Assembly: GCA_964016885.1 (NCBI GenBank)
Contig: CAXHJY010000105.1
Location: 682,001 to 746,000, forward strand
Direction of reading: 5' to 3'
Length of the DNA stretch: 64,000 nt
Origin: Eledone cirrhosa
Taxonomy: Eukaryota
Shown: positions 10,139 to 64,000 of the stretch, in pieces
Position numbering within the stretch: the stretch's first letter is position 1
How the letters are laid out: each line of letters opens with the position of its first letter
Translations under genes and position numbers: made by a program
The notes under the pieces: generated by a model
Databases searched by the model: none
What the model was told of the DNA's origin: nothing
What the model saw: the letters and a program-made list of their open reading frames with translations, nothing else

Positions 10139-10214
10139 TGAAGTCCAAGAACAGCTGGTCCATTTCCCAGTATAACTGCGGCCAATGGACATTGGAATGG
10201 GCTGAAGGAAGGAC
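10139..10214 (-). CDS. Internal coding exon (76 nt, phase 0-1) of host gene
   Basis: Minus strand: ttttctgtaacttcAG|GTCCTT...GACTTCA|GTAAGT. Translates VLPSAHSNVHWPQLYWEMDQLFLDF+a and is phase-compatible with both neighbouring exons. Confidence 0.8.
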
Positions 10215-10901: not shown

Positions 10902-10966
<65 letters not shown>

Positions 10967-11271: not shown

Positions 11272-11359
11272 CTGTTGGAGTTTCTGGGCTAATTCTGTTA
11301 AGTTGGTATCAATTATAGAACTACTAGAATTCGTTCCCCATGAAGATGACCAATTATTC
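11272..11359 (-). CDS. Internal coding exon (88 nt, phase 2-0) of host gene
   Basis: Minus strand: atttctcatttttgtAG|GAATAATTGG...CTCCAACAG|GTGGGC. Only one frame is open: (R)NNWSSSWGTNSSSSIIDTNLTELAQKLQQ. Confidence 0.72.
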
Positions 11360-12330: not shown

Positions 12331-12457
12331 CGAGATGTCAGTAGGTCGATCTGTAAAGACCCATTCAACCCTTGCTAGCTGGGAAAATGGATGTTGAATA
12401 AGGATGAAGATAAAATATGAAAAGAAACTCAGATCTGCAAATCTGACTGTTTGCTAC

Positions 12458-12583
12458 CTGGGCAGGTTAGGTTTTGGTTGGTCCATCTTGGAACTACTGT
12501 TGAACATTGAAGGTGGCACAAGTACAGGATTGGATTTCTGAGGCACTAACTTTAAATAGTTAGGGCTCAACGATGGTGGTTGG
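12458..12583 (-). CDS. Internal coding exon (126 nt, phase 2-2) of host gene; Pro/Ser-rich
   Basis: Minus strand: cttccttctctttcctttcAG|CCAACC...CTGCCCAG|GTAGCA. Translates QPPSLSPNYLKLVPQKSNPVLVPPSMFNSSSKMDQPKPNLP(R) and is in phase with exon 11272-11359. The donor is weaker than the others. Confidence 0.6.
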
Positions 12584-12707
12584 CTGAAAGGAAAGAGAAG
12601 GAAGCGGTTCAAATAGTTAGGGGTCAATGATGGTGGTTGGCTGAAAGAAAGAGAAGGGAGAGGTTCAAATAGTTAGGGCTCAATGATGGTGGTTGGTTGA
12701 AAGGAAG
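12554..12707. repeat. ~57-bp tandem repeat (2.7 copies) spanning the exon's 3' splice site
   Basis: AAATAGTTAGGG(C/G)TCAA(C/T)GATGGTGGTTGG(C/T)TGAAAG.. occurs three times (12554, 12611, ~12667). Confidence 0.9.
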
Positions 12708-12728
12708 GTCATTGCTTAACTTCAGTCT

Positions 12729-12997
12729 CATCATCATCATCATCATCATTTCATTTTATTTCCGCTTTTTCCCTGCTTGCAAGGGTCGGATGGGAACTGA
12801 TTCTGGCTCGATTTCTACAGCTGGATGCCCTTCCTAACACCAACCTCATTTAGAGTGAGTGTGGGGTGCGTTGTTGCCGTGGCGCCTCCACGACCACTTT
12901 ACAGTGGAATGATAGGGACCCCAGTCCCTATCATCTCATTTTTACAGCTGAGTAAACTGCAGCAAAGTGAAATAAAGTGTCTTGCTCAAGGAAACAA
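12729..12997 (-). mobile_element. CORE-like SINE with RTE-derived tail, 5' head absent (cut by the satellite)
   Basis: Minus strand CCTTGAGCAAGACACTTTATTTCACTTTGCTGCAGTTTACTCAGCTGTAAAAATGAG resembles the MIR/CORE consensus (ccttgggcaagtcactt..cagtttcctcatctgtaaaatg, from memory). It is followed by the RTE 3'UTR module and a (GAT)n tail (plus-strand (CAT)n at 12729-12749). Confidence 0.7.
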
Positions 12998-15900
12998 CAG
13001 CAACAAATGAAGTGTTTGTGGACAGTTGATACCAGGACATCACCACCAACAAATGATGTGTGACAACTGTCTGTGGACAGTTGATACCAGGACATCACCT
13101 CCAACAAGTGATGTGTGACAAGTGTTTGTGGACAGTTGATACCAGGATATCACCTCCAACAAGTGATGTGTGACAACTGTTTGTGGACAGTTGATACCAG
13201 GACATCACCTCCAACAAGTGATGTGTGACAACTGTTTGTGGACAGTTGATACCAGGACATCACCTCCAACAAGTGATGTGTGACAACTGTTTGTGGACAG
13301 TTGATACCAGGACATCACCTCCAACAAGTGATGTGTGACAACTGTTTGTGGACAGTTGATACCAGGACATCACCTCCAACAAGTGATGTGTGACAACTGT
13401 TTGTGGACAGTTGAAACCAGGACATCACCTCCAACAAGTGATGTGTGACAACTGTTTGTGGACAGTTGATACCAGGACATCACCTCCAACAAGTGATGTG
13501 TGACAACTGTTTGTGGACAGTTGATACCAGGACATCACCTCGAACAAGTGATGTGTGACAACTGTTTGTGGACAGTTGATACCAGGACATCACCTCCAAC
13601 AAGTGATGTGTGACAACTGTTTGTGGACAGTTGATACCAGGACATCACCTCCAACAAGTGATGTGTGACAACTGTTTGTGGACAGTTGATACCAGGACAT
13701 CACCTCCAACAAGTGATGTGTGACAACTGTTTGTGGACAGTTGATACCAGGACATCACCTCTAACAAGTGATGTGTGACAAGTGTTTGTGGACAGTTGAT
13801 ACCAGGACATCACCACCAACAAATGATGTGTGAAAAGTGTTTGTGGACAGTTGATACCAGGACATCACCTCCAACAAGTGATGTGTGACAACTGTTTGTG
13901 GACAGTTGATACCAGGACATCACCTCCAACAAGTGATGTGTGACAACTGTTTGTGGACAGTTGATACCAGGACATCACCTCCAACAAGTGATGTGTGACA
14001 ACTGTTTGTGGACAGTTGATACCAGGACATCACCTCCAAAAAATGATGTGTGACAACTGTTTGTGGACAGTTGATACCAGGACATCACCAGCAACAAGTG
14101 ATGTGTGACAAGTGTTTGTGGACAGTTGGTACCAGGACATCACCACCAACAGATGATGTGTGACAAGTGTTTGTGGACAGTTGATACCAGGACATCACCA
14201 ACAAGTGATGTGTGACAATTGTTTGTGGACAGTTGGTACCAGGACATCACCACCAACAAATGATGTGTGACAAGTGTTTGTGGACAGTTGATACCAGGAC
14301 ATCACCACCAACAAGTGATGTGTGACAATTGTTTGTGGACAGTTGATACCAGGAAATCACCACCAACAAGTGATGTGTGACAAGTGTTTGTGGACAGTTG
14401 ATACCAGGACATCACCTCCAACAAGTGATGTGTGACAAGTGTTTGTGGACAGTTGATACCAAGACATCACCAGCAACAAGTGATGTGTGACAAGTGTTTG
14501 TGGACAGTTGATACCAGGACATCACCTCCAACAAGTGATGTGTGACAAGTGTTTGTGGACAGTTGATACCAGGACATCACCAGCAACAAATGATGTGTGA
14601 CAAGTGTTTGTGGACAGTTGATACCAGGACATCACCAGCAACAAATGATGTGCGACAACTGTTGGTGGACAGTTGATACCAGGACATCACCACCAACAAG
14701 TAATGTGTGACAACTGTTTGTGGACAGTTGATACCAGGACATCACCACCAACAAATGTGTGACAAGTGTTTGTGGACAGTTGATACCAGGACATCACCAC
14801 CAACAAATGATGTGTGACAAGTGTTTGTGGACAGTTGATACCAGGACATCACCAGCAACAAATGATGTGTGACAACTGTTTGTGGACAGTTGATACCAGG
14901 ACATCACCTCTAACAAGTGATGTGTGACAAGTGTTTGTGGACAGTTGATACCAGGACATCACCAGCAACAAATGATGTGTGACAACTGTTTGTTGACAGT
15001 TGATACCAGGACATCACCACCAACAAGTGATGTGTGACAAGTGTTTGTGGACAGTTGATACCAGGACATCACCACCAACAAGTGATGGGTGACAATTGTT
15101 TGTGGACAGTTGATACCAGGACATCACCATCAACAAGTGATGTGTGACAGCTGTTTGTGGACAGTTGATACCAGGACATCACCACCAACAAGTGATGTGT
15201 GACAACTGTTTGTGGACAGTTGATACCAGGATATCACCACCAACAAGTGATGTGTGACAACTGTTTGTGGACAGTTGATACCAGGACATCACCAGTAACA
15301 AGTGATGTGTGACAACTGTTTGTGGACAGTTGATACCAGGACATCACCTCCAACAAGTGATGTGTGACAACTGTTTGTGGACAGTTGATACCAGAACATC
15401 ACCAGCAACAAGTGATGTGTGACAAGTGTTTGTGGACAGTTGGGACCAGGACATCACCACCAACAAATGTGTGACAAGTGTTTGTGGACAGTTGATACCA
15501 GGACATCACCACCAACAAATGATGTGTGACAAGTGTTTGTGGACAGTTGATACCAGGACATCACCTCCAACAAGTGATGTGTGACAAGTGTTTGTGGACA
15601 GTTGATACAAGGACATCACCTCCAACAAGTGATGTGTGACAAGTGTTTGTGGACAGTTGATACCAGGACATCACCACCAACAAGTAATGTGTGACAAGTG
15701 TTTGTGGACAGTTGATACGAAGACATCACCTCCAACAAGTGATGTGTGACAACTGTTTGTGGACAGTTGATACCAGGACATCACCACCAACACGTGATGT
15801 GTGACAAGTGTTTGTGGACAGTTGATACCAGGACATCACCTCCAACAAGTGATGTGTGACAACTGTTTGTGGACAGTTGATACCAGGACATCACCTCCAA

Positions 15901-18900
15901 AAAATGATGTGTGACAACTGTTTGTGGACAGTTGATACCAGGACATCACCAGTAACAAGTGATGTGTGACAACTGTTTGTGGACAATTGATACCAGGACA
16001 TCACCTCCAACAAGTGATGTGTGACAACTGTTTGTGGACAGTTGATACCAGGACATCACCAGCAACAAGTGATGTGTGACAAGTGTTTGTGGACAGTTGA
16101 TACCAGGACATCACCTCCAACAAATGATGTGTGACAACTGTTTGTGGACAGTTGATACCAGGACATCACCTCCAACAAATGATGTGTGACAAGTGTTTGT
16201 GGACAGTTGATACCAGGACATCACCTCCAACAAATGATGTGTGACAAGTGTTTGTGGACAGTTGATACCAGGACATCACCACCAACAAATGTGTGACAAG
16301 TGATACCAGGACATCACCACCAACAAATGATGTGTGACAAGTGTTTGTGGACAGTTGATACCAGGACATCACCTCCAACAAATGATGTGTGACAAGTGTT
16401 TGTGGACAGTTGATACCAGGACATCACCTCCAACAAATGATGTGTGACAAGTGTTTGTGGACAGTTGATACCAGGACATCACCACCAACAAATGTGTGAC
16501 AAGTGATACCAGGACATCACCACCAACAAATGATGTGTGACAACTGTTTGTGGACAGTTGATACCAGGACGTCACCTCCAACAAGTGATGTGTGACAACT
16601 GTTTGTGGACAGTTGATACCAGTACATCACCACCAACAAATGATGTGTGACAACTGTTTGTGGACAGTTGATACCAGGACATCACCTCCAACAAATGATG
16701 TGTGACAAGTGTTTGTGGACAGTTGATACCAGGACATCACCAGCAACAAGTGATGTGTGACAAGTGTTTGTGGACAGTTGATACCAGGACATCACCACCA
16801 GCAAATGATGTGCGACAACTGTTTGTGGACAGTTGATACCAGGACATCACCTCCAACAAGTGATGTGTGACAACTGTTTGTGGACAGTTGATACCAGGAC
16901 ATCACCTCCAACAAATGATGTGTGACAAGTGTTTGTGGACATTTGATACCAGGACATCACCTCCAACAAGTGATGTGTGACAACTGCTTGTGGACAGTTG
17001 ATACCAGGACATCACCAGCAACAAATGATGTGTGACAACTGTTTGTGGACAGTTGATACCAGGACATCACCTCCAACAAGTTATGTGTGACAACTGTTTG
17101 TGGACAGTTGATACCAGGACATCACCTCCATCAAGTGATGTGTGACAACTGTTTGTGGACAGTTGATACCAGGACATCACCTCCAACAAGTATGTGTGAC
17201 AACTGATTGTGGACAGTTGATACCAGGACATCACCTCCAACAAATGATGTGCGACAACTGTTTGTGGACAGTTGATACCAGGACATCACCAGTAATAAGT
17301 GATGTGTGACAACTGTTTGTGGACAGTTGATACCAGGACATCACCACCAACAGGTGATGTGTGACAACTGTTTGTGGACAGTTGATACCAGGACATCACC
17401 ACCACCAAATGATGTGTGACAAGTGTTTGTGGACAGTTGATACCAGGACATCACCTCCAACAAGTGATGTGTGACAACTGTTTGTGGAGAGTTGATACCA
17501 GGACATCACCTCCAACAAATGATGTGTGACAACTGTTTGTGGACAGTTGATACCAGGACATCACCAGTAACAAGTGATGTGTGACAACTGTTTGTGGACA
17601 GTTGATACCAGGACATCACCTCCAACAAGTGATGTGTGACAACTGTTTGTGGACAGTTGATACCAGGACATCACCAGCAACAAGTGATGTGTGACAAGTG
17701 TTTGTGGACAGTTGATACCAGGACATCACCACCAACAAATGATGTGTGACAAGTGTTTGTGGACAGTTGATACCAGGACATCACCTCCAACAAGTGATGT
17801 GTGACAAGTGTTTGTGGACAGTTGATACTAGGACATCACCAGCAACAAGTGATGTGTGACAAGTGTTTGTGGACAGTTGATACCAGGACATCACCACCAA
17901 CAAATGTGTGACAAGTGATACCAGGACATCACCACCAACAAATGATGTGTGACAAGTGTTTGTGGACAGTTGATACCAGGACATCACCTCCAACAAGTGA
18001 TGTGTGACAACTGTTTGTGGACAGTTGATACCAGGACATCACCTCCAACAAGTGATGTGTGACAACTGTTTGTGGACAGTTGATATCAGGACATCACCAC
18101 CAACAAATGATGTGTGACAACTGTTTGTGGACAGTTGATACCAGGACATCACCTCCAACAAGTGATGTGTGACAACTGTTTGTGGACAGTTGATACCAGG
18201 ACATCACCTCCAACAAGTGATGTGTGACAACTGTTTGTGGACAGTTGATACTAGGACATCACCAGCAACAAGTGATGTGTGACAAGTGTTTGTGGACAGT
18301 TGATACCAGGACATCACCACCAACAAATGTGTGACAAGTGATACCAGGACATCACCACCAACAAATGATGTGTGACAAGTGTTTGTGGACAGTTGATACC
18401 AGGACATCACCTCCAACAAGTGATGTGTGACAACTGTTTGTGGACAGTTGATACCAGGACATCACCAGTAACAAGTGATGTGTGACAACTGTTTGTGGAC
18501 AGTTGATACCAGGATATCACCTCCAACAAGTGATGTGTGACAACTGTTTGTGGACAGTTGATACCAGGACATCACCAGCAACAAGTGATGTGTGACAAGT
18601 GTTTGTGGACAGTTGGTACCAGGACATCACCACCAACAAATGATGTGTGACAAGTGTTTGTGGACAGTTGATACCAGGACATCACCTCCAACAAGTGATG
18701 TGTGACAAGTGTTTGTGGACAGTTGATACTAGGACATCACCAGCAACAAGTGATGTGTGACAACTGTTTGTGGACAGTTGAAACCAGGACATCACCTCCA
18801 ACAAGTGATGTGTGACAAGTGTTTGTGGACAGTTGGTACCAGGACATCACCAGCAACAAGTGATGTGTGACAAGTGTTTGTGGACAGTTGATACCAGGAC

Positions 18901-21900
18901 ATCACCACCAGCAAATGATGTGTGACAACTGTTTGTGGACAGTTGATACCAGGACATCACCTCCAACAAGTGATGTGTGACAACTGTTTGTGGACAGTTG
19001 ATACCAGGACATCACCTCCAACAAGTGATGTGTGACAACTGATTGTGGACAGTTGATACCAGGACATCACCTCCAACAAATGATGTGTGACAACTGTTTG
19101 TGGACAGTTGATACCAGGACATCACCAGTAATAAGTGATGTGTGACAACTGTTTGTGGACAGTTGATACCAGGACATCACCACCAACAGGTGATGTGTGA
19201 CAACTGTTTGTGGACAGTTTATACCAGGACATACATCACCAGCAACAAGTGATGTGTGACAACTGTTTGTGGACAGTTGATACCAGGACATCACCACCAA
19301 CAAATGATGTGTGACAAGTGTTTGTGGACAGTTGATACCAGGACATCACCTCCAACAAGTGATGTGTGACAACTGTTTGTGGAGAGTTGATACCAGGACA
19401 TCACCTCCAACAAATGATGTGTGACAACTGTTTGTGGACAGTTGATACCAGGAAATCACCTCCAACAAGTGATGTGTGACAACTGTTTGTGGACAGTTGA
19501 TACCAGTACATCACCACCAACAAATGATGTGTGACAACTGTTTGTGGACAGTTGATACCAGGACATCACCTCCAACAAATGATGTGTGACAAGTGTTTGT
19601 GGACAGTTGATACCAGGACATCACCACCAACAAATGTGTGACAAGTGATACCAGGACATCACCACCAACAAATGATGTGTGACAATTGTTTGTGGACAGT
19701 TGATACCAGGACATCACCTCCAACAAGTGATGTGTGACAAGTGTTTGTGGACAGTTGATACCAGGACATCACCAGCAACAAGTGATGTGTGACAAGTGTT
19801 TGTGGACAGTTGATACCAGGACATCACCACCAGCAAATGATGTGTGACAACTGTTTGTGGACAGTTGATACCAGGACATCACCTCCAACAAGTGATGTGT
19901 GACAACTGTTTGTGGACAGTTGATACCAGGACATCACCTCCAACAAGTGTTGTGTGACAACTGTTTGTGGACAGTTGATACCAGTACATCACCACCAACA
20001 AATGATGTGTGACAACTGTTTGTGGACAGTTGATACCAGGACATCACCTCCAACAAATGATGTGTGACAAGTGTTTGTGGACAGTTGATACCAGGACATC
20101 ACCAGCAACAAGTGATGTGTGACAACTGTTTGTGGACAGTTGAAACCAGGACATCACCTCCAACAAGTGATGTGTGACAACTGTTGGTGGACAGTTGATA
20201 CCAGGACATCACCACCAACAAGTGATGTGTGACAAGTGTTTGTGGACAGTTGATACCAGGACATCACCTCCAACAAGTGATGTGTGACAACTGTTTGTGG
20301 ACAGTTGATACCAGGACATCACCTCCAACAAGTGATGTGTGACAAGTGTTTGTGGACAGTTGATACCAGGACATCAGCTCCAACAAGTGATGTGTGACAA
20401 GTGTTTGTGGACAGTTGATACTAGGACATCACCACCAACAAGTGATGTGTGACAAGTGTTTGTGGACAGTTGATACCAGGACATCACCTCCAACAAGTGA
20501 TGTGTGACAACTGTTTGTGGACAGTTGATACCAGGACATCAGCTCCAACAAGTGATGTGTGACAAGTGTTTGTGGACAGTTGATACCAGGACATCACCTC
20601 CAACAAGTGATGTGTGACAACTGTTTGTGGACAGTTGATACCAGGACATCACCTCCAACAAGTGATGTGTGACAACTGTTTGTGGACAGTTGATACCAGT
20701 ACATCACCACCAACAAATGATGTGTGACAACTGTTTGTGGACAGTTGATACCAGGACATCACCTCCAACAAATGATGTGTGACAAGTGTTTGTGGACAGT
20801 TGATACCAGCACATCACCACCAACAGATGTGTGACAAGTGATACCAGGATATCACCACCAACAAATGATGTGTGACAAGTGTTTGTGGACAGTTGATACC
20901 AGGACATCACCTCCAACAAGTGATGTGTGACAAGTGTTTGTAGACAGTTGATACCAGGACATCACCAGCAACAAGTGATGTGTGACAAGTGTTTGTGGAC
21001 AGTTGATACCAGGACATCACCACCAGCAAATGATGTGTGACAACTGTTTGTGGACAGTTGATACCAGGACATCACCTCCAACAAGTGATGTGTGACAACT
21101 GTTTGTGGACAGTTGATACCAGTACATCACCACCAACAAATGATGTGTGACAACTGTTTGTGGACAGTTGATACCAGGACATCACCTCCAACAAGTGATG
21201 TGTGACAACTGTTTGTGGACAGTTGATACCAGGACATCACCTCCAACAAGTGATGTGTGACAAGTGTTTGTGGACAGTTGATACCAGGACATCAGCTCCA
21301 ACAAGTGATGTGTGACAAGTGTTTGTGGACAGTTGATACTAGGACATCACCTCCAACAAGTGATGTGTGACAAGTGTTTGTGGACAGTTGATACCAGGAC
21401 ATCACCTCCAACAAGTGATGTGTGACAACTGTTTGTGGACAGTTGATACCAGGACATCAGCTCCAACAAGTGATGTGTGACAAGTGTTTGTGGACAGTTG
21501 ATACCAGGACATCACCAGCAACAAGTGATGTGTGACAAGTGTTTGTGGACAGTTGATACCAGGACATCACCACCAGCAAATGATGTGTGACAACTGTTTG
21601 TGGACAGTTGATACCAGGACATCACCTCCAACAAGTGATGTGTGACAACTGTTTGTGGACAGTTGATACCAGGACATCACCTCCAACAAGTGATGTGTGA
21701 CAACTGTTTGTGGACAGTTGATACCAGTACATCACCACCAACAAATGATGTGTGACAACTGTTTGTGGACAGTTGATACCAGGACATCACCTCCAACAAA
21801 TGATGTGTGACAAGTGTTTGTGGACAGTTGATACCAGGACATCACCTCCAACAGGTGATGTGTGACAACTGTTTGTGGACAGTTGATACCAGGACATCAC

Positions 21901-24900
21901 CACCAACAGGTGATGTGTGACAACTGTTTGTGGACAGTTGACACCAGGACATCACCAGCAACAAATGATGTGTGACAACTGTTTGTGGAGAGTTGATACC
22001 AGGACATCACCTCCAACAAGTGATGTGTGACAACTGTTTGTCGAGAGTTGATACCAGGACATCACCTCCAACAAATGATGTGTGACAACTGTTTGTGGAC
22101 AGTTGATACCAGGACATCACCACCAACAGGTGATGTGTGACAACTGTTTGTGGACAGTTGATACCAGGACATCACCAGCAACAAATGATGTGTGACAACT
22201 GTTTGTGGACAGTTGATACCAGGACATCACCTCCAACAAGTGATGTGTGACAACTGTTTGTGGAGAGTTGATACCAGGACATCACCTCCAACAAGTGATG
22301 TGTGACAAGTGTTTGTGGACAGTTGATACCAGGACATCACCACCAACAAGTGAATGGTGACAATTGTTTGTGGACAGTTGATACCAGGACATCACCATCA
22401 ACAAGTGATGTGTGACAGCTGTTTGTGGACAGTTGATACCAGGACATCACCACCAACAAGTGATGTGTGACAACTGTTTGTGGACAGTTGATACCAGGAT
22501 ATCACCACCAACAAGTGATGTGTGACAACTGTTTGTGGACAGTTGATACCAGGACATCACCAGTAACAAGTGATGTGTGACAACTGTTTGTGGACAGTTG
22601 ATACCAGGACATCACCTCCAACAAGTGATGTGTGACAACTGTTTGTGGACAGTTGATACCAGAACATCACCAGCAACAAGTGATGTGTGACAAGTGTTTG
22701 TGGACAGTTGGGACCAGGACATCACCACCAACAAATGTGTGACAAGTGTTTGTGGACAGTTGATACCAGGACATCACCACCAACAAATGATGTGTGACAA
22801 GTGTTTGTGGACAGTTGATACCAGGACATCACCTCCAACAAGTGATGTGTGACAAGTGTTTGTGGACAGTTGATACAAGGACATCACCTCCAACAAGTGA
22901 TGTGTGACAAGTGTTTGTGGACAGTTGATACCAGGACATCACCACCAACAAGTAATGTGTGACAAGTGTTTGTGGACAGTTGATACGAAGACATCACCTC
23001 CAACAAGTGATGTGTGACAACTGTTTGTGGACAGTTGATACCAGGACATCACCACCAACACGTGATGTGTGACAAGTGTTTGTGGACAGTTGATACCAGG
23101 ACATCACCTCCAACAAGTGATGTGTGACAACTGTTTGTGGACAGTTGATACCAGGACATCACCTCCAAAAAATGATGTGTGACAACTGTTTGTGGACAGT
23201 TGATACCAGGACATCACCAGTAACAAGTGATGTGTGACAACTGTTTGTGGACAATTGATACCAGGACATCACCTCCAACAAGTGATGTGTGACAACTGTT
23301 TGTGGACAGTTGATACCAGGACATCACCAGCAACAAGTGATGTGTGACAAGTGTTTGTGGACAGTTGATACCAGGACATCACCTCCAACAAATGATGTGT
23401 GACAACTGTTTGTGGACAGTTGATACCAGGACATCACCTCCAACAAATGATGTGTGACAAGTGTTTGTGGACAGTTGATACCAGGACATCACCTCCAACA
23501 AATGATGTGTGACAAGTGTTTGTGGACAGTTGATACCAGGACATCACCACCAACAAATGTGTGACAAGTGATACCAGGACATCACCACCAACAAATGATG
23601 TGTGACAAGTGTTTGTGGACAGTTGATACCAGGACATCACCTCCAACAAGTGATGTGTGACAAGTGTTTGTGGACAGTTGATACCAGGACATCACCTCCA
23701 ACAAATGATGTGTGACAAGTGTTTGTGGACAGTTGATACCAGGACATCACCACCAACAAATGTGTGACAAGTGATACCAGGACATCACCACCAACAAATG
23801 ATGTGTGACAACTGTTTGTGGACAGTTGATACCAGGACGTCACCTCCAACAAGTGATGTGTGACAACTGTTTGTGGACAGTTGATACCAGTACATCACCA
23901 CCAACAAATGATGTGTGACAACTGTTTGTGGACAGTTGATACCAGGACATCACCTCCAACAAATGATGTGTGACAAGTGTTTGTGGACAGTTGATACCAG
24001 GACATCACCAGCAACAAGTGATGTGTGACAAGTGTTTGTGGACAGTTGATACCAGGACATCACCACCAGCAAATGATGTGCGACAACTGTTTGTGGACAG
24101 TTGATACCAGGACATCACCTCCAACAAGTGATGTGTGACAACTGTTTGTGGACAGTTGATACCAGGACATCACCTCCAACAAATGATGTGTGACAAGTGT
24201 TTGTGGACATTTGATACCAGGACATCACCTCCAACAAGTGATGTGTGACAACTGCTTGTGGACAGTTGATACCAGGACATCACCAGCAACAAATGATGTG
24301 TGACAACTGTTTGTGGACAGTTGATACCAGGACATCACCTCCAACAAGTTATGTGTGACAACTGTTTGTGGACAGTTGATACCAGGACATCACCTCCATC
24401 AAGTGATGTGTGACAACTGTTTGTGGACAGTTGATACCAGGACATCACCTCCAACAAGTATGTGTGACAACTGATTGTGGACAGTTGATACCAGGACATC
24501 ACCTCCAACAAATGATGTGCGACAACTGTTTGTGGACAGTTGATACCAGGACATCACCAGTAATAAGTGATGTGTGACAACTGTTTGTGGACAGTTGATA
24601 CCAGGACATCACCACCAACAGGTGATGTGTGACAACTGTTTGTGGACAGTTGATACCAGGACATCACCACCACCAAATGATGTGTGACAAGTGTTTGTGG
24701 ACAGTTGATACCAGGACATCACCTCCAACAAGTGATGTGTGACAACTGTTTGTGGAGAGTTGATACCAGGACATCACCTCCAACAAATGATGTGTGACAA
24801 CTGTTTGTGGACAGTTGATACCAGGACATCACCAGTAACAAGTGATGTGTGACAACTGTTTGTGGACAGTTGATACTAGGACATCACCTCCAACAAGTGA

Positions 24901-51900: not shown

Positions 51901-54900
51901 TGACAAGTGTTTGTGGACAGTTGATACCAGGACATCACCACCAACAAATGTGTGACAAGTGATACCAGTACATCACCACCAACAAATGATGTGTGACAAG
52001 TGTTTGTGGACAGTTGATACCAGGACATCACCTCCAACAAGTGATGTGTGACAACTGTTTGTGGACAGTTGATACCAGGACATCACCACCAACAAATGAT
52101 GTGTGACAACTGTTTGTGGACAGTTGATACCAGGACATCACCTCCAACAAGTGATGTGTGACAACTGTTTGTGGACAGTTGATACCAGGACATCACCTCC
52201 AACAAGTGATGTGTGACAACTGTTTGTGGACAGTTGATACCAGTACATCACCACCAACAAATGATGTGTGACAACTGTTTGTGGACAGTTGATACCAGGA
52301 CATCACCTCCAACAAATGATGTGCGACAAGTGTTTGTGGACAGTTGATACCAGCACATCACCACCAACAAATGTGTGACAAGTGATACCAGGATATCACC
52401 ACCAACAAATGATGTGTGACAAGTGTTTGTGGACAGTTGATACCAGGACATCACCTCCAACAAGTGATGTGTGACAAGTGTTTGTAGACAGTTGATACCA
52501 GGACATCACCAGCAACAAGTGATGTGTGACAAGTGTTTGTGGACAGTTGATACCAGGACATCACCACCAGCAAATGATGTGTGACAACTGTTTGTGGACA
52601 GTTGATACCAGGACATCACCTCCAACAAGTGATGTGTGACAACTGTTTGTGGACAGTTGATACCAGGACATCACCTCCAACAAGTGATGTGTGACAACTG
52701 TTTGTGGACAGTTGATACCAGTACATCACCACCAACAAATGATGTGTGACAACGGTTTGTGGACAGTTGATACCAGGACATCACCTCCAACAAGTGATGT
52801 GTGACAACTGTTTGTGGACAGTTGATACCAGGACATCACCACCAACAGGTGATGTGTGACAACTGTTTGTGGACAGTTGATACTAGGACATCACCAGCAA
52901 CAAGTGATGTGTGACAAGTGTTTGTGGACAGTTGATACCAGGACATCACCAGCAACAAGTGATGTGTGACAACTGTTTGTGGACAGTTGATACCAGGACA
53001 TCACCAACAACAGGTGATGTGTGACAACTGTTTGTGGACAGTTGATACCAGGACATCACCACCAACAAATGATGTGTGACAAGTGTTTGTGAACAGTTGA
53101 TACCAGGACATCACCTCCAACAAGTGATGTGTGACAACTGTTTGTGGACAGTTGATACTAGGACATCACCAGCAACAAGTGATGTGTGACAAGTGTTTGT
53201 GGACAGTTGATACCAGGACATCACCTCCAACAAGTGATGTGTGACAAGTGTTTGTGGACAGTTGATACTAGGACATCACCAGCAACAAGTGATGTGTGAC
53301 AAGTGTTTGTGGACAGTTGATACCAGGACATCACCACCAACAAATGTGTGACAAGTGATACCAGGACATCACCACCAACAAATGATGTGTGACAAGTGTT
53401 TGTGGACAGTTGATACCAGGACATCACCTCCAACAAGTGATGTGTGACAAGTGTTTGTGGACAGTTGATACCAGGACATCACCAGCAACAAGTGATGTGT
53501 GACAAGTGTTTGTGGACAGTTGATACCAGGACATCACCACCAGCAAATGATGCGTGACAACTGTTTGTGGACAGTTGATACCAGGACATCACCTCCAACA
53601 AGTGATGTGTGACAACTGTTTGTGGACAGTTGATACCAGGACATCACCTCCAACAAGTGATGTGTGACAACTATTTGTGGACAGTTGATACCAGTACATC
53701 ACCACCAACAAATGATGTGTGACAACTGTTTGTGGACAGTTGATACCAGGACATCACCTCCAACAAATGATGTGTGACAAGTGTTTGTGGACAGTTGATA
53801 CCAGGACATCACCACCAACAAATGTGTGACAAGTGATACCAGGACATCACCACCAACAAATGATGTGTGACAAGTGTTTGTGGACAGTTGATACCAGGAC
53901 ATCACCTCCAACAAGTGATGTGTGACAACTGTTTGTGGACAGTTGATACCAGGACATCACCTCCAACAAGTGATGTGTGACAACTGTTTGTGGACAGTTG
54001 ATACCAGGACATCACCACCAACAAATGATGTGTGACAACTGTTTGTGGACAGTTGATACCAGGACATCACCTCCAACAAGTGATGTGTGACAACTGTTTG
54101 TGGACAGTTGATACCAGGACATCACCTCCAACAAGTGATGTGTGACAACTGTTTGTGGACAGTTGATACCAGTACATCACCACCAACAAATGATGTGTGA
54201 CAACTGTTTGTGGACAGTTGATACCAGGACATCACCTCCAACAAATGATGTGTGACAAGTGTTTGTGGACAGTTGATACCAGCACATCACCACCAACAAA
54301 TGTGTGACAAGTGATACCAGGATATCACCACCAACAAATGATGTGTGACAACTGTTTGTGGACAGTTGATACCAGGACATCACCTCCAACAAGTGATGTG
54401 TGACAAGTGTTTGTAGACAGTTGATACCAGGACATCACCAGCAACAAGTGATGTGTGACAAGTGTTTGTGGACAGTTGATACCAGGACATCACCACCAGC
54501 AAATGATGTGTGACAACTGTTTGTGGACAGTTGATACCAGGACATCACCTCCAACAAGTGATGTGTGACAACTGTTTGTGGACAGTTGATACCAGGACAT
54601 CACCTCCAACAAGTGATGTGTGACAACTGTTTGTGGACAGTTGATACCAGTACATCACCACCAACAAATGATGTGTGACAACTGTTTGTGGACAGTTGAT
54701 ACCAGGACATCACCTCCAACAAATGATGTGTGACAAGTGTTTGTGGACAGTTGATACCAGGACATCACCAGCAACAAGTGATGTGTGACAACTGTTTGTG
54801 GACAGTTGATACCAGGACATCAGCTCCAACAAGTGATGTGTGACAACTGTTTGTGGACAGTTGATACCAGGACATCACCAGCAACAAGTGATGTGTGACA

Positions 54901-57900
54901 ACTGTTTGTGGACAGTTGATACCAGGACATCACCTCCAACAAGTGATGTGTGACAACTGTTTGTGGATAGTTGATGCCAGGACATCACCAGCAACAAGTG
55001 ATGTGTGACAACTGTTTGTGGACAGTTGATACCAGGACATCACCACCAACAAGTGATGTGTGACAACTGTTTGTGGACAGTTGATACCAGGACATCACCT
55101 CCAACAAGTGATGTGTGACAACTGTTTGTGGACAGTTGATACCAGGACATCACCTCCAACAAGTGATGTGTGACAAGTGTTTGTGGACAGTTGATACCAG
55201 GACATCACCACCAGCAAATGATGTGTGACAACTGTTTGTGGACAGTTGATACCAGGACATCACCTCCAACAAGTGATGTGTGACAACTGTTTGTGGACAG
55301 TTGATACCAGGACATCACCTCCAACAAGTGATGTGTGACAACTGTTTGTGGACAGTTGATACCAGTACATCACCACCAACAAATGATGTGTGACAACTGT
55401 TTGTGGACAGTTGATACCAGGACATCACCTCCAACAAATGATGTGTGACAAGTGTTTGTGGACAGTTGATACCAGGACATCACCACCAACAAATGTGTGA
55501 CAAGTGATACCAGTACATCACCACCAACAAATGATGTGTGACAAGTGTTTGTGGACAGTTGATACCAGGACATCACCTCCAACAAGTGATGTGTGACAAC
55601 TGTTTGTGGACAGTTGATACCAGGACATCACCACCAACAAATGATGTGTGACAACTGTTTGTGGACAGTTGATACCAGGACATCACCTCCAACAAGTGAT
55701 GTGTGACAACTGTTTGTGGACAGTTGATACCAGGACATCACCTCCAACAAGTGATGTGTGACAACTGTTTGTGGACAGTTGATACCAGTACATCACCACC
55801 AACAAATGATGTGTGACAACTGTTTGTGGACAGTTGATACCAGGACATCACCTCCAACAAATGATGTGCGACAAGTGTTTGTGGACAGTTGATACCAGCA
55901 CATCACCACCAACAAATGTGTGACAAGTGATACCAGGATATCACCACCAACAAATGATGTGTGACAAGTGTTTGTGGACAGTTGATACCAGGAAATCACC
56001 TTCAACAAGTGATGTGTGACAAGTGTTTGTAGACAGTTGATACCAGGACATCACCAGCAACAAGTGATGTGTGACAAGTGTTTGTGGACAGTTGATACCA
56101 GGACATCACCACCAGCAAATGATGTGTGACAACTGTTTGTGGACAGTTGATACCAGGACATCACCTCCAACAAGTGATGTGTGACAACTGTTTGTGGACA
56201 GTTGATACCAGGACATCACCTCCAACAAGTGATGTGTGACAACTGTTTGTGGACAGTTGATACCAGGACATCACCTCCAACAAGTGATGTGTGACAACTG
56301 TTTGTGGACAGTTGATACCAGTACATCACCACCAACAAATGATGTGTGACAACTGTTTGTGGACAGTTGATACCAGGACATCACCTCCAACAAATGATGT
56401 GTGACAAGTGTTTGTGGACAGTTGATACCAGGACATCACCACCAACAAATGTGTGACAAGTGATACCAGTACATCACCACCAACAAATGATGTGTGACAA
56501 GTGTTTGTGGACAGTTGATACCAGGACATCACCTCCAACAAGTGATGTGTGACAACTGTTTGTGGACAGTTGATACCAGGACATCACCACCAACAAATGA
56601 TGTGTGACAACTGTTTGTGGACAGTTGATACCAGGACATCACCTCCAACAAGTGATGTGTGACAACTGTTTGTGGACAGTTGATACCAGGACATCACCTC
56701 CAACAAGTGATGTGTGACAACTGTTTGTGGACAGTTGATACCAGTACATCACCACCAACAAATGATGTGTGACAACTGTTTGTGGACAGTTGATACCAGG
56801 ACATCACCTCCAACAAATGATGTGCGACAAGTGTTTGTGGACAGTTGATACCAGCACATCACCACCAACAAATGTGTGACAAGTGATACCAGGATATCAC
56901 CACCAACAAATGATGTGTGACAAGTGTTTGTGGACAGTTGATACCAGGACATCACCTCCAACAAGTGATGTGTGACAAGTGTTTGTAGACAGTTGATACC
57001 AGGACATCACCAGCAACAAGTGATGTGTGACAAGTGTTTGTGGACAGTTGATACCAGGACATCACCACCAGCAAATGATGTGTGACAACTGTTTGTGGAC
57101 AGTTGATACCAGGACATCACCTCCAACAAGTGATGTGTGACAACTGTTTGTGGACAGTTGATACCAGGACATCACCTCCAACAAGTGATGTGTGACAACT
57201 GTTTGTGGACAGTTGATACCAGTACATCACCACCAACAAATGATGTGTGACAACGGTTTGTGGACAGTTGATACCAGGACATCACCTCCAACAAGTGATG
57301 TGTGACAACTGTTTGTGGACAGTTGATACCAGGACATCACCACCAACAGGTGATGTGTGACAACTGTTTGTGGACAGTTGATACTAGGACATCACCAGCA
57401 ACAAGTGATGTGTGACAAGTGTTTGTGGACAGTTGATACCAGGACATCACCAGCAACAAGTGATGTGTGACAACTGTTTGTGGACAGTTGATACCAGGAC
57501 ATCACCAACAACAGGTGATGTGTGACAACTGTTTGTGGACAGTTGATACCAGGACATCACCACCAACAAATGATGTGTGACAAGTGTTTGTGAACAGTTG
57601 ATACCAGGACATCACCTCCAACAAGTGATGTGTGACAACTGTTTGTGGACAGTTGATACTAGGACATCACCAGCAACAAGTGATGTGTGACAAGTGTTTG
57701 TGGACAGTTGATACCAGGACATCACCTCCAACAAGTGATGTGTGACAAGTGTTTGTGGACAGTTGATACTAGGACATCACCAGCAACAAGTGATGTGTGA
57801 CAAGTGTTTGTGGACAGTTGATACCAGGACATCACCACCAACAAATGTGTGACAAGTGATACCAGGACATCACCACCAACAAATGATGTGTGACAAGTGT

Positions 57901-60900
57901 TTGTGGACAGTTGATACCAGGACATCACCTCCAACAAGTGATGTGTGACAAGTGTTTGTGGACAGTTGATACCAGGACATCACCAGCAACAAGTGATGTG
58001 TGACAAGTGTTTGTGGACAGTTGATACCAGGACATCACCACCAGCAAATGATGCGTGACAACTGTTTGTGGACAGTTGATACCAGGACATCACCTCCAAC
58101 AAGTGATGTGTGACAACTGTTTGTGGACAGTTGATACCAGGACATCACCTCCAACAAGTGATGTGTGACAACTATTTGTGGACAGTTGATACCAGTACAT
58201 CACCACCAACAAATGATGTGTGACAACTGTTTGTGGACAGTTGATACCAGGACATCACCTCCAACAAATGATGTGTGACAAGTGTTTGTGGACAGTTGAT
58301 ACCAGGACATCACCACCAACAAATGTGTGACAAGTGATACCAGGACATCACCACCAACAAATGATGTGTGACAAGTGTTTGTGGACAGTTGATACCAGGA
58401 CATCACCTCCAACAAGTGATGTGTGACAACTGTTTGTGGACAGTTGATACCAGGACATCACCTCCAACAAGTGATGTGTGACAACTGTTTGTGGACAGTT
58501 GATACCAGGACATCACCACCAACAAATGATGTGTGACAACTGTTTGTGGACAGTTGATACCAGGACATCACCTCCAACAAGTGATGTGTGACAACTGTTT
58601 GTGGACAGTTGATACCAGGACATCACCTCCAACAAGTGATGTGTGACAACTGTTTGTGGACAGTTGATACCAGTACATCACCACCAACAAATGATGTGTG
58701 ACAACTGTTTGTGGACAGTTGATACCAGGACATCACCTCCAACAAATGATGTGTGACAAGTGTTTGTGGACAGTTGATACCAGCACATCACCACCAACAA
58801 ATGTGTGACAAGTGATACCAGGATATCACCACCAACAAATGATGTGTGACAACTGTTTGTGGACAGTTGATACCAGGACATCACCTCCAACAAGTGATGT
58901 GTGACAAGTGTTTGTAGACAGTTGATACCAGGACATCACCAGCAACAAGTGATGTGTGACAAGTGTTTGTGGACAGTTGATACCAGGACATCACCACCAG
59001 CAAATGATGTGTGACAACTGTTTGTGGACAGTTGATACCAGGACATCACCTCCAACAAGTGATGTGTGACAACTGTTTGTGGACAGTTGATACCAGGACA
59101 TCACCTCCAACAAGTGATGTGTGACAACTGTTTGTGGACAGTTGATACCAGTACATCACCACCAACAAATGATGTGTGACAACTGTTTGTGGACAGTTGA
59201 TACCAGGACATCACCTCCAACAAATGATGTGTGACAAGTGTTTGTGGACAGTTGATACCAGGACATCACCAGCAACAAGTGATGTGTGACAACTGTTTGT
59301 GGACAGTTGATACCAGGACATCAGCTCCAACAAGTGATGTGTGACAACTGTTTGTGGACAGTTGATACCAGGACATCACCAGCAACAAGTGATGTGTGAC
59401 AACTGTTTGTGGACAGTTGATACCAGGACATCACCTCCAACAAGTGATGTGTGACAACTGTTTGTGGATAGTTAGTTGATGCCAGGACATCACCAGCAAC
59501 AAGTGATGTGTGACAACTGTTTGTGGACAGTTGATACCAGGACATCACCACCAACAAGTGATGTGTGACAACTGTTTGTGGACAGTTGATACCAGGACAT
59601 CACCTCCAACAAGTGATGTGTGACAACTGTTTGTGGACAGTTGATACCAGGACATCACCTCCAACAAGTGATGTGTGACAACTGTTTGTGGACAGTTGAT
59701 ACCAGGACATCACCTCCAACAAGTGATGTGTGACAACTGTTTGTGGACAGTTGATACCAGGACATCACCTCCAACAAGTGATGTGTGACAACTGTTTGTG
59801 GAAAGTTGATACCAGGACATCACCTCCAACAAGTGATGTGTGACAACTGTTTGTGGACAGTTGATACCAGGACATCACCTCCAACAAGTGATGTGTGACA
59901 ACTGTTTGTCGACAGTTGATACCAGGACATCACCTCCAACAAGTGATGTGTGACAACTGTTTGTGGACAGTTGATACCAGGACATCAGCTCCAACAAGTG
60001 ATGTGTGACAAGTGTTTGTGGACAGTTGATACTAGGACATCACCTCCAACAAGTGATGTGTGACAAGTGTTTGTGGACAGTTGATACCAGGACATCACCT
60101 CCAACAAGTGATGTGTGACAAGTGTTTGTGGACAGTTGATGCCAGGACATCACCTCCAACAAGTGATGTGTGACAACTGTTTGTGGACAGTTGATACCAG
60201 GACATCACCTCCAACAAGTGATGTGTGACAACTGTTTGTGGACAGTTGATACCAGGACATCACCAGTAACAAGTGATGTGTGACAACTGTTTGTGGACAG
60301 TTGATACCAGGACATCACCTCCAACAAGTGATGTGTGACAACTGTTTGTGGACAGTTGATACCAGGACATCACCTCCAACAAGTGATGTGTGACAACTGT
60401 TTGTGGACAGTTGATACCAGGACATCACCAGTAACAAGTGATGTGTGACAACTGTTTGTGGACAGTTGATACCAGGACATCACCTCCAACAAGTGATGTG
60501 TGACAACTGTTTGTGGACAGTTGATACCAGGACATCACCAGCAACAAGTGATGTGTGACAAGTGTTTGTGGACAGTTGGTACCAGGACATCACCACCAAC
60601 AAATGATGTGTGACAACTGTTTGTGGACAGTTGATACCAGGACATCACCTCCAACAAATGATGTGTGACAAGTGTTTGTGGACAGTTGATACCAGGACAT
60701 CACCACCAACAAATGTGTGACAAGTGATACCAGTACATCACCACCAACAAATGATGTGTGACAAGTGTTTGTGGACAGTTGATACCAGGACATCACCTCC
60801 AACAAGTGATGTGTGACAACTGTTTGTGGACAGTTGATACCAGGACATCACCACCAACAAATGATGTGTGACAACTGTTTGTGGACAGTTGATACCAGGA

Positions 60901-63900
60901 CATCACCTCCAACAAGTGATGTGTGACAACTGTTTGTGGACAGTTGATACCAGGACATCACCTCCAACAAGTGATGTGTGACAACTGTTTGTGGACAGTT
61001 GATACCAGTACATCACCACCAACAAATGATGTGTGACAACTGTTTGTGGACAGTTGATACCAGGACATCACCTCCAACAAATGATGTGCGACAAGTGTTT
61101 GTGGACAGTTGATACCAGCACATCACCACCAACAAATGTGTGACAAGTGATACCAGGATATCACCACCAACAAATGATGTGTGACAAGTGTTTGTGGACA
61201 GTTGATACCAGGACATCACCTCCAACAAGTGATGTGTGACAAGTGTTTGTAGACAGTTGATACCAGGACATCACCAGCAACAAGTGATGTGTGACAAGTG
61301 TTTGTGGACAGTTGATACCAGGACATCACCACCAGCAAATGATGTGTGACAACTGTTTGTGGACAGTTGATACCAGGACATCACCTCCAACAAGTGATGT
61401 GTGACAACTGTTTGTGGACAGTTGATACCAGGACATCACCTCCAACAAGTGATGTGTGACAACTGTTTGTGGACAGTTGATACCAGTACATCACCACCAA
61501 CAAATGATGTGTGACAACGGTTTGTGGACAGTTGATACCAGGACATCACCTCCAACAAGTGATGTGTGACAACTGTTTGTGGACAGTTGATACCAGGACA
61601 TCACCACCAACAGGTGATGTGTGACAACTGTTTGTGGACAGTTGATACTAGGACATCACCAGCAACAAGTGATGTGTGACAAGTGTTTGTGGACAGTTGA
61701 TACCAGGACATCACCAGCAACAAGTGATGTGTGACAACTGTTTGTGGACAGTTGATACCAGGACATCACCAACAACAGGTGATGTGTGACAACTGTTTGT
61801 GGACAGTTGATACCAGGACATCACCACCAACAAATGATGTGTGACAAGTGTTTGTGAACAGTTGATACCAGGACATCACCTCCAACAAGTGATGTGTGAC
61901 AACTGTTTGTGGACAGTTGATACTAGGACATCACCAGCAACAAGTGATGTGTGACAAGTGTTTGTGGACAGTTGATACCAGGACATCACCTCCAACAAGT
62001 GATGTGTGACAAGTGTTTGTGGACAGTTGATACTAGGACATCACCAGCAACAAGTGATGTGTGACAAGTGTTTGTGGACAGTTGATACCAGGACATCACC
62101 ACCAACAAATGTGTGACAAGTGATACCAGGACATCACCACCAACAAATGATGTGTGACAAGTGTTTGTGGACAGTTGATACCAGGACATCACCTCCAACA
62201 AGTGATGTGTGACAAGTGTTTGTGGACAGTTGATACCAGGACATCACCAGCAACAAGTGATGTGTGACAAGTGTTTGTGGACAGTTGATACCAGGACATC
62301 ACCACCAGCAAATGATGCGTGACAACTGTTTGTGGACAGTTGATACCAGGACATCACCTCCAACAAGTGATGTGTGACAACTGTTTGTGGACAGTTGATA
62401 CCAGGACATCACCTCCAACAAGTGATGTGTGACAACTATTTGTGGACAGTTGATACCAGTACATCACCACCAACAAATGATGTGTGACAACTGTTTGTGG
62501 ACAGTTGATACCAGGACATCACCTCCAACAAATGATGTGTGACAAGTGTTTGTGGACAGTTGATACCAGGACATCACCACCAACAAATGTGTGACAAGTG
62601 ATACCAGGACATCACCACCAACAAATGATGTGTGACAAGTGTTTGTGGACAGTTGATACCAGGACATCACCTCCAACAAGTGATGTGTGACAACTGTTTG
62701 TGGACAGTTGATACCAGGACATCACCTCCAACAAGTGATGTGTGACAACTGTTTGTGGACAGTTGATACCAGGACATCACCACCAACAAATGATGTGTGA
62801 CAACTGTTTGTGGACAGTTGATACCAGGACATCACCTCCAACAAGTGATGTGTGACAACTGTTTGTGGACAGTTGATACCAGGACATCACCTCCAACAAG
62901 TGATGTGTGACAACTGTTTGTGGACAGTTGATACCAGTACATCACCACCAACAAATGATGTGTGACAACTGTTTGTGGACAGTTGATACCAGGACATCAC
63001 CTCCAACAAATGATGTGTGACAAGTGTTTGTGGACAGTTGATACCAGGACATCACCAGCAACAAGTGATGTGTGACAACTGTTTGTGGACAGTTGATACC
63101 AGGACATCAGCTCCAACAAGTGATGTGTGACAACTGTTTGTGGACAGTTGATACCAGGACATCACCAGCAACAAGTGATGTGTGACAACTGTTTGTGGAC
63201 AGTTGATACCAGGACATCACCTCCAACAAGTGATGTGTGACAACTGTTTGTGGATAGTTGATGCCAGGACATCACCAGCAACAAGTGATGTGTGACAACT
63301 GTTTGTGGACAGTTGATACCAGGACATCACCACCAACAAGTGATGTGTGACAACTGTTTGTGGACAGTTGATACCAGGACATCACCTCCAACAAGTGATG
63401 TGTGACAACTGTTTGTGGACAGTTGATACCAGGACATCACCTCCAACAAGTGATGTGTGACAAGTGTTTGTGGACAGTTGATACCAGGACATCACCACCA
63501 GCAAATGATGTGTGACAACTGTTTGTGGACAGTTGATACCAGGACATCACCTCCAACAAGTGATGTGTGACAACTGTTTGTGGACAGTTGATACCAGGAC
63601 ATCACCTCCAACAAGTGATGTGTGACAACTGTTTGTGGACAGTTGATACCAGTACATCACCACCAACAAATGATGTGTGACAACTGTTTGTGGACAGTTG
63701 ATACCAGGACATCACCTCCAACAAATGATGTGTGACAAGTGTTTGTGGACAGTTGATACCAGGACATCACCACCAACAAATGTGTGACAAGTGATACCAG
63801 TACATCACCACCAACAAATGATGTGTGACAAGTGTTTGTGGACAGTTGATACCAGGACATCACCTCCAACAAGTGATGTGTGACAACTGTTTGTGGACAG

Positions 63901-64000
63901 TTGATACCAGGACATCACCACCAACAAATGATGTGTGACAACTGTTTGTGGACAGTTGATACCAGGACATCACCTCCAACAAGTGATGTGTGACAACTGT
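12998..64000. repeat. 55-bp satellite array, ~51 kb, roughly 930 monomers, with higher-order duplications; runs off the right edge
   Basis: Consensus GTTTGTGGACAGTTGATACCAGGACATCACC(TC/AC/AG)CAACAA(G/A)TGATGTGTGACAA(C/G)T, uninterrupted and in one orientation. Length variants of 38, 41, 52, 54, 57 and 59 bp occur. Confidence 0.98.

What the first reader, a model, noticed from the sequence alone, without database searches (positions are those of the whole stretch)
12998..64000. A >51-kb satellite apparently forming a giant intron of a protein-coding gene
Seen: the rightmost detected exon (12458-12583) begins with an acceptor and an open frame from its first codon. Between it and the window end lie only a short repeat, a SINE and the uninterrupted satellite. 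Inference: the upstream exon lies beyond 64000, so Pol II would transcribe about 930 double-hairpin units in each pre-mRNA. This parallels the satellite-filled giant introns of Drosophila Y-linked fertility genes, and could act as a transcription timer, an RNA-binding-protein scaffold or a small-RNA source. It is the strongest candidate for an undescribed system here.
Basis: inference. Interest (0 to 1): 0.75.

Follow-up and report, generated by a model that had tools for sequence, protein, structure and literature searches.

The report
Private satellites inflate octopod gene introns
In an octopus-like animal, one intron of a gene for a predicted RNA-binding protein is 105,000 bases long and consists of about 1,870 copies of a 55-base repeat found nowhere else in the assembly, and one transcript-like contig is spliced cleanly across it; because other introns and the next gene are swollen by different, unrelated repeats, this is likely runaway local copying that the cell tolerates, not a purpose-built timer or scaffold.

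Summary
The giant intron is real. The 55-bp array runs 102.6 kb (window 13013 to 51.6 kb beyond the window's end). The upstream exon lies just beyond it and matches in phase and in the Octopus bimaculoides orthologue. One contig of run X3 joins that exon directly to window 12583, across a 105,135-bp intron. The host is an intact 19-exon Tudor / MIF4G-like / zinc-knuckle gene spanning 477 kb (0.7% coding); its last intron (277 kb) holds an unrelated 27-bp array.

A dedicated function is not supported. The unit is private to this intron, its hairpins fold no better than dinucleotide shuffles, and stems mutate as freely as loops. The neighbouring 3-beta-HSD-family gene has a 204-kb intron filled with other units, and 5 of 40 chromosome samples are wholly tandem.

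Best reading: local repeat expansion like avian 'sequence stuttering', at sizes approaching Drosophila Y-loop proportions. The scan noted this pattern before at other loci of this genome. I found no description for cephalopods in print. Tissue, polymorphism and orthologue intron size are untested.

The parts
13013..64000 (.). 55-bp tandem array, part inside the window (888 anchored monomers). It continues beyond the window to G000:C132:797623; 102,611 bp in all; private to this locus.
   Evidence: 1,792 genome-wide hits of a 26-base pattern at up to 3 mismatches, all inside this array
12584..64000 (-). Intron 9 of the host gene, part inside the window. The whole intron is G000:C132:694584-799718 (105,135 bp, GT-AG, phase 2; 558 bp not tandem).
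   Evidence: spliced contig of X3 (exon 9 at contig positions 393-576)
12458..12583 (-). Coding exon 10 (126 bp, phase 2 to phase 2)
   Evidence: X3 contig positions 576-703
12554..12706 (-). 56-bp repeat, 2.7 copies, duplicating the acceptor and first ~30 bases of exon 10 (exon stuttering). It creates a second in-frame acceptor at 12641, which the X3 contig does not use.
   Evidence: X3 depth 0 over 12587-12724; loose end matches the exon copy
12729..12999 (-). High-copy SINE-like element with an (ATG)n tail, truncated on the side that abuts the array
   Evidence: summed contig depth above 10^6 and loose ends at 12999 continuing into the missing part; fuller copies near C132:832600-833300
11272..11359 (-). 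Coding exon 11
   Evidence: X3 contig positions 704-792
10139..10214 (-). Coding exon 12 (start of the MIF4G-like helical domain)
9230..9343 (-). Coding exon 13; 37 of 37 residues identical to P0002

Best explanation
This is a real 105-kb intron of an intact, spliced protein-coding gene, and it likely grew from an ordinary intron of about 0.5-1.3 kb by local runaway copying of a 55-bp stretch, which the cell likely tolerates without using it. Shown: exon order, phase, GT-AG ends, one spliced contig across the intron, a unit unique to this place, and multi-kilobase blocks of units copied within the array. Inferred: (1) a short local stretch was first duplicated head to tail by slippage or repair; (2) the array then grew by unequal exchange or gene conversion of whole blocks; (3) it persists because the transcribed strand carries no AATAAA/ATTAAA and no GT[AG]AG donor, and the true splice sites are intact, so Pol II would read through and the spliceosome would pair the real sites; (4) the same process acts independently on other introns and genes of this genome.
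For: Splice: one X3 contig (1,353 nt, depth 7.81) lies on exon 9 at positions 393-576, and its loose end is window 12554-12583; positions 576-703 and 704-792 lie on exons 10 and 11. Gene intact: 19 exons, 1,138 codons, 957 of 1,130 aligned residues identical to P0002; one copy found. Local origin: all 1,281 exact and all 1,792 near matches in the genome are inside this array; none of 11 array units from this scaffold matched another. Without repeats, introns 9 and 18 keep 558 and 650 bp, and 10 of 18 introns are under 1.4 kb. Block growth: a 5.7-kb block recurs 9,303 bp away with 97% of units identical, a 2,018-bp block is doubled in tandem, and a 93-bp composite monomer occurs 94 times. No stem constraint: 45 alleles over 28 stem sites against 51 over 27 other sites, p 0.48. 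Regional and general: the neighbouring PF01073 gene has introns of 203,899 and 22,432 bp filled by 41-, 44- and 27-bp units; 92% of C132:42001-899844 is tandem; 5 of 40 non-terminal 10-kb chromosome samples are wholly tandem, each with a different unit.
Against: The splice rests on one contig from one sample of one study, and that run's kind is not on record. Neutrality is inferred from lack of sequence constraint, and length could matter without sequence mattering (PMC6508621 introduction makes this argument for dystrophin). The host has Tudor and zinc-knuckle domains, which suggest an RNA-regulatory and possibly germline role (recalled knowledge; tissue unknown). Folding is better than mononucleotide shuffles on both strands. 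The ancestral intron size is inferred from within this gene; no orthologous intron could be measured. The 40 background samples were placed at round coordinates, not drawn at random, and are not known to be intronic.
Confidence: 0.72

Rival explanations
1. Y-loop-like giant gene: intron length is selected as a transcription delay, or the nascent satellite RNA is a scaffold that needs dedicated RNA-binding proteins, probably in the germline.
For: 99.3% of the 477-kb coding span is non-coding and 91% of intron bases are tandem repeat, near the 'over 99%' of kl-3 and kl-5 (PMC6508621 abstract, introduction). The splice across the array implies it is transcribed. At a recalled elongation rate of 1-4 kb/min the gene would take 2-8 h. 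The orthologue carries a Tudor domain.
Against: Units are private and unrelated between introns, so one scaffold protein could not read them all by sequence. A 3-beta-HSD-family enzyme gene next door has the same anatomy. Large arrays with differing units are common across chromosomes. Stems are unconstrained.
Confidence: 0.12
2. The array is a source of small RNAs or of structured RNA (double hairpin processed by Dicer-like or piRNA machinery, or edited by ADAR).
For: Two 7-bp inverted repeats per unit; the trimer folds better than mononucleotide shuffles (z -2.45 to -2.79). About 1,870 copies would be made per transcript.
Against: Not better than dinucleotide shuffles (monomer z -0.16, dimer -1.27, trimer -1.07). 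Both stems are perfect in only 44% of unit pairs. Stems of 7 bp are short for such processing (recalled knowledge). No Rfam match at E 1. All units face one way (0 reverse matches), so there is no long perfect duplex and no sequence target elsewhere in the assembly.
Confidence: 0.05
3. Assembly artefact: the array's length is inflated, or it was joined into this intron wrongly.
For: C132 is a 0.9-Mb scaffold, far smaller than the chromosome-sized contigs. Exact multi-kb internal repeats can be mis-counted by assemblers.
Against: The flanking exons are on one gap-free stretch (0 N) in the right order, strand and phase. The array occurs nowhere else in the assembly. It holds 202 distinct monomers in a structured pattern. 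A false insertion would need two misjoins inside one short intron.
Confidence: 0.06
4. The scaffold is centromeric or pericentromeric, and the array is a structural satellite that happens to sit in an intron.
For: 92% of the scaffold read is tandem repeat, with five arrays of 75-277 kb, and it appears unplaced.
Against: Each array has its own unit, mostly bounded by exons of intact genes. The 55-bp unit occurs at one locus only, whereas centromeric satellites are usually shared between chromosomes (recalled knowledge).
Confidence: 0.05

Closest known systems
Avian 'sequence stuttering' on dot chromosomes (Hron et al. 2026, PMC12954441; read: abstract, section 7, part 1 of section 8, discussion)
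   Same: [quoted passage not shown] Blocks stay between exons and coding sequence is intact. Some expansions copy an exon edge with its splice site. Neighbouring genes are affected alike.
   Different: Scale: their exon-stuttering spans are 112-23,555 bp (median 1,751) and their example intron is 1.6-2.9 kb; here arrays reach 102.6, 113 and 276.5 kb. The units here are more regular (3.1% from consensus), the array is 45% GC, and SINE- and LINE-like pieces are present, whereas dot euchromatin is described as GC-rich and devoid of interspersed repeats. Invertebrate. Length variation within the species, one of their three main features, was not testable.
Drosophila Y-loop fertility genes kl-3, kl-5, ks-1 (Fingerhut et al. 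2019, PMC6508621: abstract and introduction; Fingerhut et al. 2024, PMC11207136: abstract)
   Same: More than 99% of the locus is non-coding, the introns are satellite-filled, and exons are spliced across them.
   Different: Y-loop introns reach megabases and consist of simple satellites such as (AATAT)n; the genes are Y-linked, expressed only in spermatogenesis, and need Blanks and Heph. Here the introns are 0.1-0.28 Mb, the large units are 27-57 bp and differ between introns, a neighbouring enzyme gene looks the same, and no tissue restriction or helper protein is shown.
Amphioxus 'mirages' (Ebner et al. 2010, PMC3087553: abstract and section 16)
   Same: Tandem copies of an intron-exon boundary that do not disturb splicing. 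This fits the 56-bp repeat at exon 10 and the 22-kb 42-bp array at exon 17 of this gene.
   Different: The 55-bp array itself contains no exon edge. The mirage cluster counted in that paper has 3-6 units, against about 1,870 units here.

Membership tests
Avian-type sequence stuttering | Introns filled with locally expanded, intron-private motifs; coding exons intact | tested here: met
   All genome-wide hits lie in the one array; no match among 11 units; ORF intact, 85% identical to P0002
Avian-type sequence stuttering | Occasional expansion of an exon edge with its splice site | tested here: met
   56-bp repeat at the exon 10 acceptor; 42-bp array at exon 17 with 491 copies of the exon start, 6 of which keep the acceptor
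Avian-type sequence stuttering | Extensive intron length variation within the species | not testable with these tools
   Only contigs of at most two samples were available
Avian-type sequence stuttering | Context: GC-rich dot chromosomes devoid of interspersed repeats | tested here: not met
   Array GC 0.45; SINE- and LINE-like pieces in the introns; wholly tandem samples also on 379-Mb and 135-Mb chromosomes. This is context in the paper, not one of its three main features.
Drosophila Y-loop-type giant genes | Over 99% of the locus non-coding, introns mostly satellite | tested here: met
   3,417 coding of 476,741 bp; 91% of intron bases tandem
Drosophila Y-loop-type giant genes | Megabase introns of simple satellite | tested here: not met
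   105 and 277 kb; 55- and 27-bp units
Drosophila Y-loop-type giant genes | Satellite transcribed as part of the pre-mRNA | tested here: inconclusive
   Follows from the spliced contig, but nascent satellite RNA was not seen directly; contigs cannot show strand or level
Drosophila Y-loop-type giant genes | Sex-chromosome linkage and spermatocyte-only expression | not testable with these tools
   Scaffold apparently unplaced; tissue of X3 not given
Drosophila Y-loop-type giant genes | Dedicated RNA-binding proteins and lampbrush-like loops | not testable with these tools
   Needs cytology and genetics
Amphioxus mirages | Repeat unit spans an exon-intron boundary | tested here: not met
   The 55-bp unit has no match in the non-tandem part of C132:242001-899844, exons included. 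The feature is met only by the 56-bp and 42-bp repeats.
MIF4G-domain proteins (host gene, residues ~462-693 of P0002) | Helical MIF4G fold | tested here: inconclusive
   Pfam has no MIF4G hit. The predicted model (pLDDT ~60-88 there, 4-sequence alignment) matches chains of spliceosome and translation-initiation complexes and the MIF4G domains of DAP5, UPF2 and Paip1 at Z 12.4-14.2, rmsd 3.8-5.3 over 189-213 residues, and Atlas features score 0.93; helical bundles can reach Z ~13 by chance

The most novel reading that the evidence does not exclude
This octopod has a genome-wide class of giant genes in which ordinary genes, not only sex-linked fertility genes, are transcribed through 100-280-kb introns of private satellite. 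Handling them would need a dedicated elongation and splicing programme, possibly recursive cutting at the 8,828 TAG|GT motifs in the 27-bp array of the last intron. Array length would then act as a fast-evolving, heritable control of transcription time.
Probability: 0.12. Interest if true: 0.8.

Novelty: new variant of a known kind. Interest (0 to 1): 0.45.

Why it matters
It shows, with a spliced contig, that an animal gene is expressed across more than 100 kb of near-homogeneous satellite outside the Drosophila Y paradigm, and that stuttering-type expansion can reach arrays 4-12 times longer than the largest exon-stuttering span reported in birds. Because this array is private to one intron, probes and read mapping are locus-specific. 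That makes an open question directly testable: does intron gigantism need a function or special machinery, or is it simply tolerated? It also warns that such genes will be split or lost in short-read cephalopod assemblies.

Tried and rejected
Pfam on the three window exons alone found nothing at E 10 (0 of 3). A protein search with the 37-aa exon was too short to run; the 46-aa Tudor exon found four relatives.

The run search listed no holder on record as RNA. That blank is no evidence either way; X3 is treated as transcript-like only because its contig skips introns at their GT-AG ends.

Summed contig depth over the bin holding the first 48 bases of the array was about 10,000-23,000 in X1, X2 and X4, against 4-10 on unique sequence. 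The tool states this is not a copy number, and these runs may be the assembly's source, so I do not count it as support. X3 depth of 48 on that bin cannot show satellite transcription.

I considered that the unit derives from a SINE, because of a by-eye likeness near window 8845-8880. blastn against the non-tandem part of C132:242001-899844 and 60 background loci found no match, so the seed is unidentified.

Hairpins as a general trigger of expansion: of 34 array units folded on both strands, 2 had z below -2 on one strand and 1 on the other by the script's count, so not supported. The stronger result (z -2.79) used mononucleotide shuffles and weakened under dinucleotide shuffles. Absence of AATAAA in the unit is permissive but uninformative, since few random 55-mers carry it, and intron 4, which holds a small array, has 10 sense copies.

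A processed pseudogene as the source of the spliced contig is unlikely: the search with P0002 found no intronless copy (stricter first look). Orthologous intron sizes could not be obtained with the tools.

Literature: searches listed no paper on satellite-filled introns in cephalopods (listings and abstract starts only). Term look-ups in three cephalopod genome papers (10.1101/2025.08.29.672809, PMC13218726, PMC12682272; passages only) found 0 uses of 'tandem repeat' or 'satellite'. No supplements were read, and subscription papers are not in the library, so a prior description cannot be excluded.
Full report
Observation. The window holds a 55-bp tandem array from 13013 to its end. The window is G000:C132:682001-746000, on an 899,844-bp scaffold. 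Neighbouring stretches show the array ends at C132:797623, so it is 102,611 bp long with no N. It splits into 1,798 anchored monomers, among them 1,674 of 55 bp and 94 of a 93-bp composite. The 55-bp ones average 3.1% from the consensus, and no monomer is longer than 114 bp. One correction: the exon opens in phase 2.

The gene. An exon beyond the array encodes part of a Tudor domain and found four relatives, including Octopus bimaculoides LOC106867702 (P0002). Relatives are also listed from O. sinensis, Argonauta hians and a cuttlefish. P0002 maps exon by exon along the minus strand of C132, from 832001 to 355264, as one copy. The model has 19 coding exons, all introns with GT/AG ends, and one open frame of 1,138 codons, 957 of 1,130 aligned residues identical to P0002. 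It spans 476,741 bp, 0.7% coding. For P0002, Pfam gives Tudor (E 1e-14) and a zinc knuckle below its cut-off. The middle helical part is predicted to be MIF4G-like; this is a lead, because Pfam does not call it.

The intron is real. Exon 9 (C132:799719-799902) ends in phase 2, exon 10 (window 12583-12458) begins in phase 2, and P0002 reads straight across the joint. One contig of run X3 (1,353 nt, depth 7.81) lies on exon 9 at its positions 393-576; the loose ends are the start of exon 10 on one side and the end of exon 8 on the other. A contig of the same length and depth lies on exon 10 at 576-703 and on exon 11 at 704-792, and X3 has zero depth over most unique intron bins that the other three runs cover. 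Intron 9 is therefore 105,135 bp and is spliced out at the predicted sites. The duplicated acceptor at 12641 is not used in that contig. Limits: one contig, one sample, one study; the run's kind and tissue are not on record. That Pol II transcribes the satellite follows from cis-splicing but was not seen directly.

The unit is private and grew in place. A 25-base pattern has 1,281 matches in the genome and a 26-base pattern 1,792 at up to 3 mismatches. All are forward, and the same counts are found inside the held stretch of this array. Without tandem repeats, intron 9 keeps 558 bp, and 10 of the gene's 18 introns are under 1.4 kb. Inside the array, multi-kb blocks recur: 5.7 kb at an offset of 9,303 bp with 97% of units identical, 3.2 kb at 4,501 bp with all units identical, and a 2,018-bp tandem doubling. 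This fits growth by unequal exchange or conversion of blocks (inference). The transcribed strand has no AATAAA, ATTAAA or GT[AG]AG, though it has 1,191 YAG, which would let transcription and splicing pass (inference).

The double hairpin is weak. Two 7-bp inverted repeats exist per unit, but both are perfect in 44% of 1,552 unit pairs. Substitution alleles fall on stems as often as elsewhere (45 over 28 sites against 51 over 27, p 0.48). Folding beats mononucleotide shuffles (2 of 150) but not dinucleotide shuffles (21 of 150). Rfam has no match at E 1 over window 12400-16000.

The pattern is regional and widespread. In the same gene, intron 18 is 277,141 bp and holds an unrelated 27-bp array of 276.5 kb; introns 13, 14 and 16 hold 71-, 61-, 57- and 42-bp arrays; 91% of intron bases are tandem. 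The next gene, on the opposite strand, is a four-exon 3-beta-HSD-family gene (PF01073 on 4 of 4 exons with successive profile positions; 365-codon frame). Its introns of 203,899 and 22,432 bp are filled with 41-, 44- and 27-bp units; no spliced contig was laid on this gene. Over C132:42001-899844, 92% is tandem; the first 42 kb were not read. Of 40 non-terminal 10-kb samples from 10 chromosomes, placed at round coordinates, 5 were wholly tandem, each with its own unit; of the first 10 kb of 11 chromosomes, 4 were. Very long arrays with differing units are thus a common feature of this genome.

Comparison with what is known. It works like avian sequence stuttering (PMC12954441; sections read as listed under Closest known systems). 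Two of that paper's three main features are met, local intron-private expansion and occasional exon-edge copies; the third, length variation within the species, could not be tested. The arrays are much longer than the spans reported there (at most 23,555 bp for exon stuttering), and the context is not GC-rich. In proportion it resembles Drosophila Y-loop genes (PMC6508621), but it fails the megabase and simple-satellite features, and nothing shows testis-only expression or helper proteins. Exon-edge repeats in the same gene match amphioxus mirages (PMC3087553). The stuttering and mirage leads came from earlier scan notes on other loci of this genome; I read the papers but did not check those loci. 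Seven searches and three term look-ups found no description for cephalopods; supplements were not read.

Verdict. The proposed functions are unsupported. Most likely (0.72) this is tolerated local repeat expansion at unusual scale. A Y-loop-like length or scaffold function remains possible (0.12). New variant of a known kind; interest 0.45.

Noticed in passing
G000:C132:356635-633125 (intron 18 of the same gene): A 276.5-kb array of a 27-bp unit (about 10,240 units). Its transcribed strand carries 8,828 TAG|GT motifs behind a pyrimidine-leaning stretch, 264 GT[AG]AG and no AATAAA: thousands of possible decoy acceptors or ratchet-like points. The splice across this intron was not checked in reads.
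   Followed up: partly
G000:C132:118492-346537, + strand: Four-exon 3-beta-HSD-family gene with a 203,899-bp intron (113-kb 41-bp array plus ~90-kb 44-bp array) and a 22,432-bp intron. It converges tail to tail with the Tudor gene.
   Followed up: partly
G000:C132:635243-657675 (intron 16): 22-kb, 42-bp array grown from the acceptor and first bases of exon 17: 491 copies of the exon start, of which 6 keep the acceptor.
   Followed up: partly
window 1-1407 (C132:681206-683407); also C132:347207-348627 and L093: A 61-bp array at the end of a LINE-like element. The same 61-bp unit forms separate arrays at two other places, so one spot of this element seems to seed arrays repeatedly.
   Followed up: partly
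window 1400-5300 and 5700-8300: Two LINE-like elements on the minus strand in intron 13, read by eye from reverse-transcriptase-like open stretches; not classified with a tool.
   Followed up: no
window 11760-12340: Two pieces resembling the end of a LINE reverse transcriptase in opposite orientations inside the 1.1-kb intron 10 (by eye). One mimics a plus-strand exon with good splice signals.
   Followed up: no
G000:C132:814000-826000 (intron 2): A GC-richer segment occurs twice about 7.2 kb apart, with near-identical open stretches at 825678-825444 and 818513-818279, separated by 72-bp arrays.
   Followed up: no
G000 contigs C1-C25: Four very large chromosomes (379-443 Mb) beside smaller ones of 29-135 Mb (11 sampled). 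C10 begins with 10 kb of a 6-bp telomere-like repeat.
   Followed up: no
P0002 residues 9-120, ~462-693, 1115-1131: The host protein family (Tudor, MIF4G-like helical domain, C-terminal zinc knuckle) is uncharacterized in the source records; the named relatives from the one short-query search made are all cephalopod. Its function is open.
   Followed up: partly
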